DNA from: Phallusia mammillata
Taxonomy: Eukaryota
DNA: 64,000 nucleotides
Direction of reading: 5' to 3'
Assembly: GCA_965637545.1 (NCBI GenBank)
Contig: OZ281495.1
Coordinates: 8,494,001 to 8,558,000, forward strand
Positions within the stretch are counted from its first letter, which is position 1. Every line of letters begins with the position of its first letter. Below are positions 36,001 through 51,000 of the stretch, in pieces. The position numbers are program-made.

Positions 36001-39000
36001 TAAAAACTGATATTTTATCTGATACATCAGTGACAAACATAGGACCGAATGTTGTATACAGGACCGAAAAGTACCAGACCGAAAACAAAATAGGAAAGCC
36101 ATTATTAGGCTTGAATGTTGTTAAAATTATGCCATTTTTAAGAAATTGTAAATATTTCACGTGCAGAAATAGCAATCATGGTAATATTAAAATCATGGTA
36201 ATATAGTAATATTTTAATAAAAAAATAACATCAAGTTTAGGATAAAATTATCCCGAATAAAGTCCCCTATAAAAGTAGTCACGTTTAGGTTTCGCAATGA
36301 TAAATATCTAAATGTGGGATTGCAAGTTGTACACTAGAGCTTCAAATATCACCATAAGAAACAAGGCAATAGTAACTTATAACAAAGTTTTACCTTTTAA
36401 AGCTGTTCTTTAGTAAAAGGGTTTACAAAACAGCATGTTTTTTTTTTATCCACAAACTAATATGCTCAGACCTGGAACATTTTTAAATTAAACCCAAGAA
36501 ATGATTTGCGCGGAATAACACCATTTCTGATAAACGGAAAATTTTCTCGATTTTTATGAAAAAAGCTTTTTTAACGTTATACGCGGAAAGGTACTATTTT
36601 TCAAAAATGATTTGGAACTGCTCAATTACAACTACTAACGAATAGCACCGTTTATGAATAAAAAACGTCTTATCATACCACTTATTTCCATCATTCCAAA
36701 TTTTGCAGAAATCTAGTAAAAAACAAAATATCTAGTAAACACGTAATTTTGATGTGCTGATATATCTATCAGTCGTACCGAGAAATAAAGAGCAACAAAT
36801 CCCGTAGAGAAAATCAGCAGTAGAAACATTAGACTCAACCACATCAGTTTTCGAATGCTTTGGACACTTTTTTGTGTTTCAATCATCATATTTTCCATTT
36901 TTTCGTTTTTTCTCACTTCGGAGGTGGCTTGAAACGTTTCTACAAATAACACGAGAAAGTATAAATATAAATGCATACACTAATTCAACAACACTAGGCC
37001 TACCATATTTTCATCCCCCCAAAAGAGGACACATTGTTGAAAGAAAATGAAAAAATATTTTAAGGGCATCCCCCAAATAAAAGCCTTCGAAATTAGACGC
37101 TATAGAATAGTTTGCATAAAGTTTAACGTTTATCACATAAAATACGCTTGTATTTTCAAAAAAATGTAAAAATATTCAAAAAAATAAGCTGTAATTTGGC
37201 TGCCTTCAAAGGCATGATTGTCACATATGTATTTGGTAAATCAGAAATTCTTCGAAAACGAGGACATTTGGGCACTTTTTCTTGTCTTTGGAGGACAACA
37301 AGTTTTTTGTTAAAAAGGAGGGCATGTCCTCCAAAAAGAGGACACCAGGATTGGAAGAAAGGTAGACAAACATGTAAGGTTTTGAGGTTGGTCCGTAATA
37401 TTGCAACAAAAATAGCTCTGAATAAAAGCTCTTAAAAGTGCGGAAACTGGACAGTTACGCACAATGATGCAAATATTAGGCCGAACCCGAAAGTACAAGG
37501 GAAAAAATGTTCTAAACGTGAATGACCTTGTGTTCGGTTCCGCAACCAAATTGTTACATCAAACGTGCAAATGGGCCTGAAGTTTGAGCCCGAACCCGAA
37601 AGTACAAGCCCGAAACCCGGCCCTAACCCAAATCGTTTTTGAGAAAAAAAGCCCGTTTATGCCTGAAAGTTTGATTGACAGGCCTATACATTGAAGCCCC
37701 AGAAAAGAACAAGATAACAAGAACAATAGACAACATAAGACAATCGGTCTAAAACCAGACTGTTTGACAATAGGTCAGCTCCAGCATGTAGCTAATTACA
37801 GTTATTTTAAAAAAATACTGACATGGAGTGTAAATGCAGACCCGAATCATTTCTGAACAAACCAAGACCCAAACCCGGCCCGAAAAGCTTGGCCCGACTT
37901 ACAACTTCGTGCCACATATACCCAAACACAAAAATCTCAAAATGTACAAATATACGCAACAATTAAACCACATACTAGCTGCGTATATATAACCAATCTA
38001 AAATATTAACTACTCAACCTTGCACAGATGGAAAGTTCGTAACTGGCACATTTTTGTTTAAAATGTTGGTTCGCCCCAATCAACAGTTGAACTGATTCGG
38101 AATAATGTAGCACCGTTTCAAAGTGACAATACATTTAGGTCAGGTATAAGCAACTAAAATGAAACACATTCTACGTACCATAAACTTGCTCCTCTAATTC
38201 CATTCCAGGCAGTTCACGGTTTTGTGTATTCATTGTCTTTAGCAGTTGTGGCTTTAACGTACGTAAGTTTATGGCTGCAGCATTCTATCACTTTGCGGCT
38301 TCTGTAATATTGCAAAAATAACGTGTTAACACGCCTGGGGTCGCCAAATGTTGCGAGGTGTTTATTGGAGGTACATCTTAATAGAATGACACATGCACGA
38401 ACTATGAATACGCCGCATACAAACAACAAGAGTGAAAAAAGAAGGCAATTTGTTTTTCACCCACTCCCACACATAAAGCCGTTGCGAGGTTGTAGAGTTT
38501 GAATATTGTGACTTTTTCCAATATGTAGTTTCAAAAAACTTTTCAACCTGCTCAACACACAAAACGGGTCCTGTGGTTATAAAAGTTGTGGTCGGGTTGG
38601 GCTCTCCAAACGCAATCGCCTGTTAGCACCTCCAATCGCCTATTTATTCTCCAGCGCCCTCTCAATGATACCAAACGCCCAGGTTGAGAGCTACTGATGT
38701 GCTTTACAAAACAAAAAAACAGGAAACATCATTTCCCAGTATGCGGCTAGCGGTGGAATAAGAGTAAATTTTTAAAACAACATCACCTGGCTGTAAAACG
38801 GATTTTATTTAATTGCATAAAAAAACTTTAAATTAGTTTGAACGTGCACCACGGATTCTTTCAAATACTTGCAAGTTTTTTTTTTCTCTTTTACGCACTT
38901 TTGCAGTCGTAAACTGGATTCTACTATTTAAATAACAATATTAAACCTTTAAAAAAATGTGGCCTTAATATCAGCATATAATCTTTGGCATAAGATTGTT

Positions 39001-48000: not shown

Positions 48001-51000
48001 TACCTCGTGTCACAATCTAATCATTGTGATGCAATAATCCATCTAAAACACAAGTTGTCCAACCTGTTGTTACGCGATAGAGCCCCATGAATGACATATT
48101 GTCTCCAAAATAATACAGCGAGTTCAGGGAAAAATACATAAATTTACTCATTTCTGCCAACTGGTGAGATTTAACGCGAATTAGGTTGGCCAAATTAAAT
48201 AAAACTTGTGGGTACTTACATTTGAGCGTAATACTGCACACTGAATGCTAATATTTAAAGTCTACTTGAAAATTAAGTAGACAAATTTTCATGAAAATAG
48301 TTTTTGTTTCGGCATTGCATGAAGAATTTTTCACTATCTGAAAAAAATGGGGTCGCATGTAAATGTTGATTTAAATTTCTTATAAACTGGGGTCGCCTTT
48401 AAAAAAGGTTGAAGACCACTGTTTTAGACGAGGCACCATGCGTGGTATCCTGCCAATGGATGTACGAAACCTGATATGCACAATTACTCTGTACCAACAA
48501 GTTAGCCTACCATACAATAATGTTTTGCATGTAGTTTGCGAGAACATTTGGTTTAGAATTATGCATTTGTGAGACCGCACTGACAAACAAGCAAAGAATT
48601 CATTATGGTTGTTTGTAGTGCGGCAAAGCAATGTGCAACGTTACCCCGAGTGTCAAGAAAGTCGGTGAATACTAAGTTAATTCAGCAGCATGTTGTGTAA
48701 ATGCGCAGCATTCGGGAAATACTTTACCGGTCTGTACACTTGAAACACGGCGAACTTTGGATACTTGCCCTGGTGGATACAGGTACTTCGGTAATTGTTG
48801 TTCAAAAGCGCGTGTGGATTATCTGTCGCGAGTTCCCAGTATTGTTAGGTATTCTAATGCAGATGGTGGTGAACTACATATAAACGGACAATGTATCCTG
48901 AACGCGCTGAAGTCGGCAACATCATCAGTTTTTTGTGTACGTAATATCTAGCATTAAAGAAGATTGTACACTTGGTTTACAATTTCTTCAGCGCAACCTC
49001 TTTAAATGAACTGTATAGATTGAGGCTAATTCTTAGCTTTGCGTAGGTTCGCACGGGTATATAAGGATAAGGTAAAAAAATGATTTTTTTGCTAAACCTC
49101 ATTTTGCACAGTCGTACCGAGAAATGAAAAGCGACAAATCCGACAGTGAAAATGAGAAGCGGAAAAATCAAACTCAACCACATCAGTTTTCGATTGCTTT
49201 GGACGCTTTTATTGGTCTCTCTTATCATGGTTTCAAGCTTTTCGTTGTTTCTCATTCTGGTGGTGCTTTGCTCTGGTGGTGCAAAGTTTTCTGGAAAGCG
49301 CAAGACAACAGAAATGTCACAAAACGGTATATGTAACTTAAGAATCGCCTTAGAAGCTTATGCGATCTATTATGTTTGAAATCTTGCAAAACCAGAACTT
49401 ACGTTCTTTGCAGCAATGTCAACACTGCGCAAATGCGTTCATTCACCGTATTGTTTATGACGACTTTAGTATAACTATATAGGGCAGTGGTTCTCAAACT
49501 TTTGTATTGTCGGGGCCAAATGGTAGTATTTCAAGTGTGTAGGGAGCCGCAAAAAAACGAAACCTGGAGAAAATCACTAAAGACTATTACCTTGAAAGCT
49601 AAAATATAAATGTTTGGTGGTTTTCTGAGGTCTGGTGCGAGCCGCAAAATAAGTAGTTGGGAGCCGCATGTGGCCCCGAAAACCGGGTTTGAGAACCACT
49701 GATATAGGGGGTTCCAACTTCCAATGTCAACAAAAAGAAAGACACATTGCAATTGCACTGCTGTAACAATGCAATTAGCGTTTGTTGTAAGTTTTGAGAA
49801 GAGGTGCAGAAAAATATGTACACCTTTGTATTAAGTTGGCTGTGGTAAAATCTACGACTGGGAGATCAAACACGCGGCTCACGGGCCAAGTGTATTTGTG
49901 CGACCCACGAAAAGGTATGTGTTTTACTCGGGCCGAATACAAAGCCCAGCCAGTGACTGCTGGACTCATTATTAGTGAAGGTATAGAGTTGGCTTAGATG
50001 CGACGTTTTAAAGGATTCTTGCAGTGGCTAGTTCGGCCCTCGACTCACTTTAAAAATTGTTGGCCCTCAAAATAATATTAGTTTGAGACTTTTGATCAAA
50101 GTAGTAAATATAAAATATAGTAAATTTACAAAGTAGTAAATATAACTGCAACTTAAAACAGCTTTAAACAAAAACCTCGCTGGTCGCCGAACATGACGTT
50201 TATAGTGATTCAGATTTGTAAGCGTTCCAACATAAAATCCCAATGCGATGGTGCCTTTAAAGCCCGAATTGAGACCGAATATGTAGCTTAGCATTAAGTT
50301 AACCAAAAAAAGCCTACATAAAATATATGCAGAATATATTAGGTACACAACAATTAAATTAATATACAACATGTGCGTGCCCATAATTAGGAATTAGCTA
50401 TTTATTCATTTATTTTATGATCTCATTTACTTAATCGCTTATAATTCCGGCTTCGAAAAAAGTCAGGTTAACAAAACGTTGTAAACTAAAAAATTAAGTC
50501 AGGTCCGTAACAAGTTTAAATTGAAAATTTCAAGTCCAACTTAAACTTCACCACACTTATACAAAACCAATCCTATGTACCATAACACCGTTCCTGCATT
50601 TCCATCCCGGGCTGGTCTCGGTTCTGTGCACTCATTGTCTTTAGCTGATGCTTGTAAAGCTTATCACTCACACAAAGTACTCCTCTTGATACTCAGCAGT
50701 ACATTTTTATGCTTTAATTAGGACTGGAATAGTTACAGCGCGTTCTGCTTTCCATACGGGCTGTACGTGTCTTATCGAGTCTTTTTTCTTCGCGTAAAAA
50801 TGCTTGTTCAGCATTATTTTATACATTGGAGGGGATTTCCCATTAGTGTTTAGAATGACGGTGATTTGCTCTTTTAATTAATATATGACTCTGTATCGCA
50901 ATCTGGTGTCAGTATTTTAAACTAGTGGCTCAAAAAGGGATTTTGCAGAAAAACTCTTTGTTTTTTTAACACAGACAGGTAAGGGTATTATTATTATTGT

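What the first reader, a model, noticed from the sequence alone, without database searches (positions are those of the whole stretch)
36679..50635. Surplus 5' cassettes: possible alternative-promoter, variable-N-terminus splicing
Seen: five intact exon-1 copies (19220, 38179, 39529, 46022, 50581) and four TM exons, but only three sets of head exons. Both G2 exon-1 copies end in phase 1 and could splice to the TM exon at 36939. The G4 TM exon ends in phase 0 and could splice to the phase-0 G3 exon at 44819. Inference: a variable-first-exon/constant-region arrangement, loosely like clustered protocadherins, would alter the cytoplasmic tail or promoter. The alternative is simple duplication debris.
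Basis: partly seen in the sequence, partly recalled or inferred. Interest (0 to 1): 0.65.

Follow-up and report, generated by a model that had tools for sequence, protein, structure and literature searches.

The report
Spare front ends in receptor-gene cluster
A cluster of membrane-receptor-like genes in an unnamed invertebrate-like genome carries two extra gene "front ends"; one has been kept intact by selection and may give the neighbouring gene a second promoter and tail, but only RNA data can show whether it is used.

Summary
Only three gene bodies follow them. G2 and G3 end in a MAM domain. G1 has its own neck exons and an unidentified head.

- **Phase fit says little.** All paralogues inherited the same exon phases.
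- **G4 is not decayed debris.** G4 is promoter, exon 1 and TM exon with no trace of neck or head. Against G3 its TM exon gives dN/dS 0.15 (p = 3e-5). Its own lineage shows 7 synonymous to 2 non-synonymous changes. Its promoter-proximal block is conserved.
- **The proposed join is in frame but not the default.** 49118 to 44819 requires skipping G3's own TM exon. Joining to that exon gives an early stop.
- **In G2, 39529 is the ancestral first exon.** 38179 is a nested local duplicate without the family's promoter block, and evidence for its use is weak.

No transcript or homologue data were available. This is a plausible new member of the "multiple variable first exon" kind, still unproven.

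The parts
50581..50635 (-). G4 exon 1 coding part (ATG 50635, 18 codons plus 1 base, donor GTACATAG)
50636..50841 (-). G4 5'UTR and promoter-proximal block, conserved with G3 (79% over 282 bp including the exon). Holds the kB-like palindrome at 50831-50841.
49118..49290 (-). G4 TM exon (173 nt, phase 1 in, phase 0 out). Encodes the rest of the cytoplasmic tail and the membrane span.
46300..49117 (-). Spacer between the G4 TM exon and the G3 promoter. It holds no neck or MAM relic and no Pfam domain. It contains a MITE-like element (47831-48431) and sequence colinear with the region upstream of G2 exon 1b.
46022..46076 (-). G3 exon 1 coding part
46077..46274 (-). G3 promoter-proximal block with the kB-like palindrome at 46264-46274
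45010..45182 (-). G3 TM exon. Its acceptor would intercept a G4 read-through transcript, out of frame.
44786..44819 (-).
43875..43928 (-). G3 neck exon (54 nt, phase 1 to 1), with paralogues in G2 (34663-34730) and G1 (12723-12810)
41443..43218 (-). G3 MAM domain in five exons (43218-43069, 42785-42699, 42354-42323, 42098-42014, 41579-41443). The stop codon directly follows the last MAM cysteine.
39529..39586 (-). G2 exon 1b (19 codons plus 1 base). It holds the ancestral position: its upstream 1.1 kb is colinear with the region upstream of G3 exon 1.
38179..38233 (-). G2 exon 1a, a nested duplicate inside G2 intron 1. Homology is limited to 38152-38248 and the family promoter block is absent.
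36779..36939 (-). G2 TM exon (161 nt)
36679..36712 (-). G2 exon 3 (34 nt, phase 0 to 1)
30858..33003 (-). G2 MAM domain in five exons (33003-32857, 32611-32528, 31841-31810, 31504-31420, 30994-30858). The stop is at the same place as in G3.
19220..19274 (-). G1 exon 1 coding part
18737..18897 (-). G1 TM exon (161 nt)

Best explanation
The region is a tandem, birth-and-death cluster of lineage-specific type II membrane protein genes. Each gene has exon 1 (start of the cytoplasmic tail), a TM exon (rest of the tail plus the membrane span), small phase-1 neck exons and a C-terminal head. The head is a MAM domain in G2 and G3.

Two 5' modules are surplus.
1. **G4** is promoter, exon 1 and TM exon with no body, lying 2.8 kb upstream of G3. 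It has been kept under purifying selection. It most likely serves as a second promoter and an alternative tail-plus-membrane module for the G3 body. The productive join would be 49118 to 44819 with G3's own TM exon skipped. The out-of-frame join to G3's TM exon would be a dead-end product.
2. **G2** has two first exons from a local tandem duplication of exon 1 plus part of intron 1. 39529 is the ancestral one and 38179 is nested. Each has a donor and no usable acceptor, so either could start a G2 mRNA if it has a promoter.

Shown: the anatomy, the intactness, the selection signature and the frames. Inferred: transcription, splicing choice and membrane topology.
For: - **Copies and coordinates:** (5 exon-1 and 4 TM exon copies).
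- **No G4 body:** 0 of 12 pieces scored above shuffles. 0 of 9 spacer ORFs had a Pfam hit. There were no tblastn or blastn hits.
- **G4 coding constraint against G3:** 151 of 173 nt are identical, with 12.7 synonymous and 9.3 non-synonymous differences. dS is 0.48, dN 0.07, ratio 0.15, Fisher p 2.8e-5.
- **Frame controls:** pN/pS is 0.19 in the true frame and 0.48 and 1.58 in the two wrong frames.
- **G4's own lineage, polarised with G2 and G1:** 7S:2N in the TM exon and 3S:2N in exon 1. The G3 lineage shows 3S:7N and 0S:1N.
- **Simulation:** random substitutions give 7 or more synonymous of 9 with probability 0.0004-0.003.
- **Intactness:** under neutral change of 20% per site, the G4 module stays intact with probability about 0.03.
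- **Alignable sequence between the G3 and G4 units:** only the exons, their splice-site flanks and the promoter-proximal 200 bp align (71-78% identical). Intron 1 does not.
- **Promoter block in G1:** it is also more conserved between G1 and G3 (62%) than their exon-1 coding sequence (51%).
- **Frames:** 49118 to 44819 is in frame. 49118 to 45182 stops after 9 codons.
- **G2:** the region upstream of 39529 is colinear with that upstream of G3 exon 1. An intron segment is present twice, once after each exon-1 copy.
- **G2 and G3 bodies:** intact, with dN/dS 0.38 and p 7e-4.
Against: - **No external support.** There is no transcript evidence of any kind. There are no homologues to check gene models against: 0 hits.
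- **The G4 to G3 product needs a non-default splice.** G3's TM exon, with a normal acceptor, must be skipped. No long-range complementary 'selector' pairing was found near the sites. 11 inverted pairs were found, none linking them.
- **Polyadenylation hexamers lie in the way.** Seven AATAAA and two ATTAAA lie between the G4 TM exon and G3 exon 1.
- **The counts are small.** There are 22 differences in one 173-nt exon, and they are polarised with distant outgroups.
- **The differences are uneven.** 20 of the 22 lie outside an 83-nt core. Gene conversion is therefore possible, including from a functional paralogue outside the window, and that could mimic constraint.
- **G2 evidence is weak.** The exon-1 copies give tiny counts (3S:1N and 1S:4N). 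A single exon 1 stays intact by chance with probability about 0.2. 38179 lacks the family promoter block (22-40% identity, which is random level).
Confidence: 0.4

Rival explanations
1. Duplication debris. Both surplus modules are non-functional leftovers of birth-and-death evolution. G4 lost its neck and head by a recent clean deletion, or its exons were refreshed by gene conversion from a functional paralogue. 38179 is an inert intronic copy of exon 1.
For: - G4 has no body at all.
- 38179 lacks the family promoter block and has no usable in-frame acceptor (and sequence read).
- A single exon 1 stays intact by chance with probability about 0.2.
- The G3-G4 differences are strongly clustered, with 2 in an 83-nt core and 20 in the other 90 nt. 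This fits a conversion tract.
- Tandem families of this type commonly hold relic exons. PMC1885805 mentions pseudogene and relic variable exons in a figure legend passage.
Against: - dN/dS is 0.15 with 7S:2N on the G4 lineage itself. My rough estimate from the counts is that any neutral phase is limited to about the last third of that lineage or less.
- The G4 module would stay intact under full neutrality with probability about 0.03.
- The G4 promoter block is conserved.
- The 83-nt core is conserved in all four paralogues, including distant G1. This points to constraint rather than one recent G3-G4 conversion.
Confidence: 0.35
2. G4 is a small gene of its own. It would encode only the tail and membrane span plus a short extracellular stub, made by retaining the intron after 49118 or by an unrecognised terminal exon. 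Such a product could act as a decoy or partner of the full-length paralogues.
For: - The frame stays open for 46 codons past the G4 TM donor. The figures are 1, 21 and 6 codons in G1, G2 and G3.
- Coding constraint on the TM exon.
- AATAAA hexamers lie from 1.2 kb downstream.
Against: - The donor and the next 16 intron bases are conserved 15 of 16 with G3. This argues that the donor is used.
- The read-through stretch has no paralogue, no Pfam match and no test of constraint.
- An open run of 46 codons in AT-rich sequence is only mildly unusual. This is my estimate of about 0.05, not a computed value.
Confidence: 0.12
3. Assembly artefact. Collapse or a misjoin among near-identical tandem paralogues removed the body of G4 or created the second G2 exon 1.
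For: Tandem paralogue clusters are prone to misassembly (general knowledge). G3-G4 homology stops abruptly 16 bp after the TM exon.
Against: - The paralogues are only 72-87% identical, too diverged to collapse.
- The window has no N.
- The two G2 exon-1 copies differ at 15 of 58 aligned positions, so they are old copies and not a recent assembly duplicate.
Confidence: 0.06

Closest known systems
[quoted passage not shown]
   Same: Tandem paralogous first exons lie upstream of one shared body. In those clusters each variable exon is spliced separately to the constant exons, and for GCNT2 each has a distinct promoter. UGT2A has only two variable exons, 64% identical (passages of PMC1885805 read; abstract start of PMC3325998). 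The two G2 first exons fit this plan on sequence grounds: both have donors, neither has a usable acceptor, and they share one TM exon acceptor.
   Different: Here the variable part is tiny, 18-19 residues of cytoplasmic tail. There are only two copies in G2. One copy (38179) shows no conserved promoter. G4 is a two-exon cassette whose use needs skipping of an intervening exon that has a normal acceptor, a problem single variable first exons do not have. No transcript shows any of the joins.
Conjoined genes, or cis-splicing of adjacent genes (read-through chimeras)
   Same: These are two same-strand neighbours a few kb apart, where upstream exons could be joined to downstream-gene exons with the intergenic region spliced out. 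I saw only the titles and abstract starts of PMC2953495, PMC4422297 and PMC6393300 in the listing. A search for 'second exon' inside PMC6393300 found nothing.
   Different: G4 has no 3' end or body of its own, so it is not an independent parent gene. The usual join to the downstream gene's second exon (recalled, not verified here) would be out of frame in this locus.
Type II membrane receptors with a stalk and a C-terminal recognition domain (C-type lectin receptors, class A scavenger receptors; recalled), and MAM-domain proteins such as meprin, neuropilin, receptor phosphatase mu and the type II protease enteropeptidase
   Same: The plan is a short N-terminal tail without signal peptide, one hydrophobic span preceded by basic residues, a stalk built from small symmetric exons, and an extracellular domain at the C-terminus. 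The MAM domain is confirmed by Pfam in 3 of 4 MAM-exon ORFs.
   Different: The head is a single MAM domain, not a lectin or collagen domain. The N-terminal module has no detectable relative: 0 hits among 1.84 billion representatives. Coiled-coil character of the neck was not tested.

Membership tests
Multiple variable first exon cluster (protocadherin/UGT1/GCNT2 type) | Two or more tandem paralogous first exons upstream of one set of constant exons | tested here: met
   G2 has two exon-1 copies (39586-39529 and 38233-38179) before one TM exon. G4 exon 1 and TM exon lie before the G3 body with no body of their own.
Multiple variable first exon cluster (protocadherin/UGT1/GCNT2 type) | Each variable exon carries its own promoter | tested here: inconclusive
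   The promoter-proximal block is conserved for G4, G3 and G1. It is weak for 39529 and absent for 38179. Promoter activity cannot be computed here.
Multiple variable first exon cluster (protocadherin/UGT1/GCNT2 type) | Variable exons have a donor but no acceptor, so no variable exon lies as a splice target between the chosen exon and the constant region | tested here: not met
   Met for the two G2 first exons. The candidate upstream AG sites of 38179, read by eye, run into a stop. Not met for G4: G3's TM exon has a normal acceptor, lies in between, and is out of frame with the G4 donor.
Multiple variable first exon cluster (protocadherin/UGT1/GCNT2 type) | mRNAs that join each variable exon to the shared constant exons | not testable with these tools
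   No transcript data were at hand. No homologous gene models were found.
Conjoined gene / cis-spliced adjacent genes | Two independent parent genes on one strand, each complete | tested here: not met
   G4 has no neck, head or recognisable terminal exon.
Pseudogene fragment (duplication debris) | Disabling changes or a neutral substitution pattern | tested here: not met
   There is no stop, frameshift or lost ATG or splice site in any of the 5 + 4 copies. The G4 TM exon gives dN/dS 0.15, with 7S:2N on its own lineage. For the two G2 exon-1 copies the counts are too small to decide.
MAM domain proteins (Pfam PF00629) | Match to the MAM profile above the curated cut-off | tested here: met
   Three single-exon ORFs scored 30.6, 32.2 and 35.8 bits against a cut-off of 26.4. 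They cover profile positions 1-42 and 112-157. A fourth ORF (41754-42098) gave no hit. Exons were searched one by one.
Type II stalked receptors (C-type lectin receptor-like) | C-terminal C-type lectin domain | tested here: not met
   The heads are MAM. The resemblance lies in overall layout only.

The most novel reading that the evidence does not exclude
G4 and G3 form one transcription unit with two mutually exclusive two-exon 5' cassettes. Each cassette is a promoter, a cytoplasmic tail and a membrane span. Exclusivity is enforced because including both TM exons breaks the frame. The same MAM ectodomain could then be displayed on either of two tail-plus-span modules that differ at 13 of 76 residues. 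These include the residue that completes a Y-x-x-hydrophobic motif across the exon 1/TM exon junction: G4 and G2 have F there and G3 has C. Both promoters keep the same kB-like palindrome, hinting at inducible, immune-type control. G3's own cassette may be the one drifting (3S:8N against 10S:4N, Fisher p 0.047).
Probability: 0.2. Interest if true: 0.55.

Novelty: new member of a known kind. Interest (0 to 1): 0.38.

Why it matters
If the G4 module is used, a headless promoter, tail and membrane cassette would be kept by selection only because it is spliced onto a neighbour's ectodomain. That would be a small, clean example of how partial tandem duplication creates alternative promoters and alternative intracellular ends for a surface receptor. 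It would differ from the classic variable-first-exon clusters in using a two-exon cassette and a frame-based exclusion.

It also bears on annotation. Gene finders would call G4 a fragment or fuse it wrongly. They could also fuse the MAM genes with the neighbouring WSC genes. If it is debris, the case is ordinary.

Tried and rejected
- **Homologue searches for gene models.** The G4 TM exon and a WSC exon were sent against the 5.8-billion protein set with longer lengths: no hit. The G4 TM exon was sent by phmmer against 1.84 billion representatives: 0 hits. The ESM Atlas on a G1 head ORF gave no usable hit. The third homologue search was left unused, because it would give neither organism nor transcripts.
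- **Relics of a G4 body.** tblastn, sensitive blastn and Smith-Waterman with shuffles found none.
- **A different head for G4.** 0 of 9 spacer ORFs matched Pfam.
- **Long-range RNA pairing that could loop out G3's exon 1 and TM exon.** 11 short inverted pairs were found. Two are MITE-like ends and none links the relevant introns.
- **38179 as an internal exon.** Rejected, because candidate upstream AG sites lead to a stop (read by eye).
- **WSC exons as part of G2.** Rejected. G2 and G3 both stop directly after the MAM domain, and the WSC array has its own signal-peptide exon.
- **Rfam and tRNA scans of the window.** Nothing found.
- **Collections not used.** Supplements of papers were not opened.

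
Full report
**What the window is.** It has 64,000 bases and no N. GC content is 33-40%. It is an intron-rich eukaryotic sequence. I do not take it for human. It is AT-rich, and it carries arrays of WSC-domain exons and a family of MAM genes whose N-terminal module has no relative in 1.84 billion representative proteins. No tool flagged it.

I left out the step of joining exons into a spliced model for a search or a fold. The dN/dS of the multi-exon MAM domain was counted exon by exon and only the counts were summed.

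**Checking the observation.** All genes of interest lie on the minus strand.
- **Exon 1.** Each has an ATG in the invariant context ACAATGA, 18 open codons (19 in the 39529 copy), one leftover base (phase 1) and a donor GTAC(G/A)NAG.
- **TM exon.** Four copies lie at 18897-18737, 36939-36779, 45182-45010 and 49290-49118. All have an acceptor in phase 1 and a donor TCG|GTA(C/T)GA in phase 0.
- **Copy number.** Profiles built from these copies find exactly 5 and 4 matches in the window (E 1e-21 to 1e-57). The next best hits have E >= 2.7.
- **Exon 3.** The 34-nt phase-0 exon at 44819-44786 is real and has a G2 twin at 36712-36679.

**The gene bodies.** G2 and G3 each continue with small neck exons that start and end in phase 1. 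Five exons then encode one MAM domain.
- Pfam MAM scored above its cut-off in 3 of 4 single-exon ORFs.
- All ten MAM exon boundaries are AG/GT.
- Both genes stop directly after the last MAM cysteine, at the same position.
- G2-G3 MAM exons give dS 0.29, dN 0.11, ratio 0.38 and p 7e-4, so both bodies look functional.

G1 shares the exon 1, TM and neck plan. Its head is unidentified: 0 of 6 ORFs matched Pfam, and the Atlas gave nothing.

The WSC exons at 20.8-28.5 kb and 56.7-64 kb belong to separate genes. The first array has its own signal-peptide exon at 28887-28812.

**G4 has no body.** After the G4 TM exon nothing resembling a neck or MAM exon exists before the G3 promoter.
- tblastn of all minus-strand ORFs and sensitive blastn give nothing.
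- 0 of 12 G2/G3 pieces score above the best of 30 shuffles.
- 0 of 9 spacer ORFs match Pfam.
- The spacer holds a MITE-like element (47831-48431).
- From 46.7 to 47.8 kb it holds sequence colinear with the region upstream of G2's 39529 exon.

**Is G4 debris?** The evidence says no, or not for long.
- **Pairwise with G3.** The TM exon is 151/173 identical. Differences split into 12.7 synonymous and 9.3 non-synonymous. dS is 0.48, dN 0.07, ratio 0.15, Fisher p 2.8e-5.
- **Frame controls.** In the two wrong frames the same alignment gives pN/pS 0.48 and 1.58, against 0.19 in the true frame.
- **Lineages.** Polarised with G2 and G1, the G4 lineage has 7 synonymous and 2 non-synonymous changes in the TM exon, and 3 and 2 in exon 1. 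The G3 lineage has 3 and 7, and 0 and 1. Three TM sites and two exon-1 sites were ambiguous and are left out of these lineage counts.
- **Simulation.** Random substitutions give 7 or more synonymous of 9 with probability 0.0004-0.003, depending on transition bias.
- **Intactness.** With 20% neutral change per site, the whole G4 module (ATG, two donors, one acceptor, no stop) would stay intact with probability about 0.03, indels ignored.
- **Age.** Synonymous divergence between G3 and G4 is at least as large as between G2 and G3, so the module is old.
- **What still aligns.** Between the G3 and G4 units only the constrained parts align. These are 200 bp upstream of the ATG (71-78%), exon 1 (47/55), 54 bp before the TM exon (45/54), the TM exon itself, and 16 bp after it (15/16).
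- **Promoter block.** It is shared with distant G1, where it is better conserved (62%) than the coding part of exon 1 (51%). It holds a kB-like palindrome at the same place in G3 and G4. The pattern is recalled. It gave 8 overlapping matches at 3 sites, against 1.7 expected, and 1 of 100 shuffles reached 8.

**Caveats on that signal.**
- It rests on 22 differences in one exon.
- The outgroups are distant.
- 20 of the 22 differences lie outside an 83-nt core. That core is also conserved in G2 and G1. This suggests nucleotide-level constraint, but conversion is not excluded.
- Conversion from a functional paralogue outside the window could import a 'selected-looking' sequence.
- From the counts I estimate roughly that a neutral phase, if any, covers at most about the last third of the G4 lineage. 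This is an inference, not a computed bound.

**How G4 could work.** That follows from shared ancestry: every exon 1 fits every TM exon, and every TM exon fits every exon 3.

The real obstacle is different. A transcript started at G4 would meet G3's TM exon acceptor (45182) first. That join runs into a stop after 9 codons. A productive G4-G3 mRNA therefore needs G3's TM exon skipped. The two TM exons would behave as mutually exclusive, with the double-inclusion product broken in frame. Mutual exclusion by frame breakage followed by mRNA decay is a known principle (recalled, not tested here).

No complementary 'selector' sequences were found. Seven AATAAA and two ATTAAA hexamers lie in the spacer.

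The alternative cassette would change 13 of 76 N-terminal residues. One of these is the position after the junction tyrosine: Y-E-N-F in G4, Y-E-N-C in G3 and Y-E-T-F in G2. Reading this as a Y-x-x-hydrophobic sorting motif is recalled and inferred.

**G2's two first exons.**
- The 39529 copy has the ancestral position. About 1.1 kb upstream of it is colinear with the region upstream of G3 exon 1 (39324-40595 against 45832-47556).
- The 38179 copy lies inside intron 1. Its homology spans only 38152-38248.
- A segment of G3's intron 1 occurs twice in G2, once after each exon-1 copy (39094-39150 and 37430-37522). The extra exon therefore arose by a local tandem duplication of exon 1 plus part of the intron.
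- The copies are old: 43/58 identical, with pS about 0.36.
- Both are intact, but a single exon 1 stays intact by chance with probability about 0.2.
- The lineage counts (3S:1N for 38179, 1S:4N plus one inserted codon for 39529) are too small to decide.
- 38179 has no trace of the family promoter block (22-40% identity, random level). 39529 keeps it weakly (45-62%) and has lost the kB-like site.
- Both have donors and no usable acceptor, which is the layout of variable first exons. Use of both is possible but unsupported.

**Comparison with known systems.**
- **Closest kind: multiple variable first exons.** These are the protocadherin, UGT1, GCNT2 and UGT2A clusters. I read passages of PMC1885805. 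They state that each variable exon is spliced to the shared constant exons, that GCNT2 variable exons each have a distinct promoter, and that UGT2A has only two variable exons. G2 fits that layout on sequence alone. G4 departs from it, being a two-exon cassette with an intervening acceptor.
- **Conjoined genes.** For these I saw only titles and abstract starts. They share the read-through idea, but G4 is not a complete parent gene.
- **The protein plan** resembles stalked type II receptors, with a MAM head in place of a lectin head (recalled comparison).

**Verdict.**
- My confidence that the G4 module serves as an alternative 5' cassette of G3, with alternative first exons possible in G2, is 0.4. 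Within that reading, I rate use of both G2 first exons at about 0.35.
- Debris, including recent orphaning or conversion, is at 0.35.
- A stand-alone mini-protein is at 0.12.
- Misassembly is at 0.06.

The matter would be settled by junction reads. Interest is moderate. The mechanism class is known, the family is lineage-specific, and the headless cassette under selection is the one unusual point.

Noticed in passing
window 20800-28887 and 56600-64000, minus strand: Two paralogous arrays of WSC-domain exons (74-94% identical blocks) form separate secreted-protein genes, not heads of the MAM genes. The first has its own signal-peptide-like exon (ATG 28887, ends 28812). The only in-frame donor there is GC (CAG|GCAAGT), an apparent GC-AG intron. 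The second array runs off the window.
   Followed up: partly
window about 60836, minus strand: One WSC exon of the second array lacks one G of a G run compared with both equivalent exons of the first array. This shifts the frame. It is either a pseudogenising deletion or a homopolymer sequencing error.
   Followed up: partly
window 46264-46274 and 50831-50841 (also 43590-43599): A palindromic kB-like site (recalled consensus GGGRNWYYCC) sits about 190-205 bp upstream of the ATG of both G3 and G4, at homologous positions. There were 8 overlapping matches at 3 sites against 1.7 expected. It is degraded upstream of 39529 and only partly kept in G1.
   Followed up: partly
window 45064-45146 and the equivalent parts of the other three TM exons: An 83-nt core of the TM exon is nearly invariant at the nucleotide level in all four paralogues, synonymous sites included. 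There are 2 G3-G4 differences here against 20 in the other 90 nt. This points to a splicing enhancer, an RNA-level constraint or repeated conversion.
   Followed up: no
window 51600-52632, plus strand: A gene with one RRM split over two exons, preceded by an acidic coiled stretch, looks like a nuclear poly(A)-binding protein. Pfam RRM_1 matched in two ORFs; the family name is recalled. It is transcribed divergently from G4 with about 1 kb between them. A reverse-transcriptase-like ORF fragment lies at 51079-51321 (no Pfam hit).
   Followed up: partly
window 3244-3660, plus strand: An exon encodes the C-terminal part of a glycosyl hydrolase family 20 (hexosaminidase) catalytic domain (E 1.2e-12).
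   Followed up: no
window 45314-45573 and 47831-48431: MITE-like elements with terminal inverted repeats of 26-28 nt. One lies in G3 intron 1 and one in the G4-G3 spacer. Related sequence gives spurious long ORFs in several places in the window.
   Followed up: no
window 34268-34577, 35751-36084, 36314-36406 (G2) and 12.7-17.7 kb (G1): The neck is built from short symmetric phase-1 exons that are themselves tandemly repeated within G2 and numerous in G1. Stalk length probably varies by exon duplication or skipping.
   Followed up: no
window 1-439 vs 5397-5826; 4301-4771: A 95% identical direct repeat pair lies 5.4 kb apart. A 157-bp tandem repeat has three copies.
   Followed up: no
window 11981-12163, minus strand: This ORF downstream of the G1 neck has an aspartate/glycine-rich motif and may belong to G1's head. 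It has no Pfam or Atlas match.
   Followed up: partly
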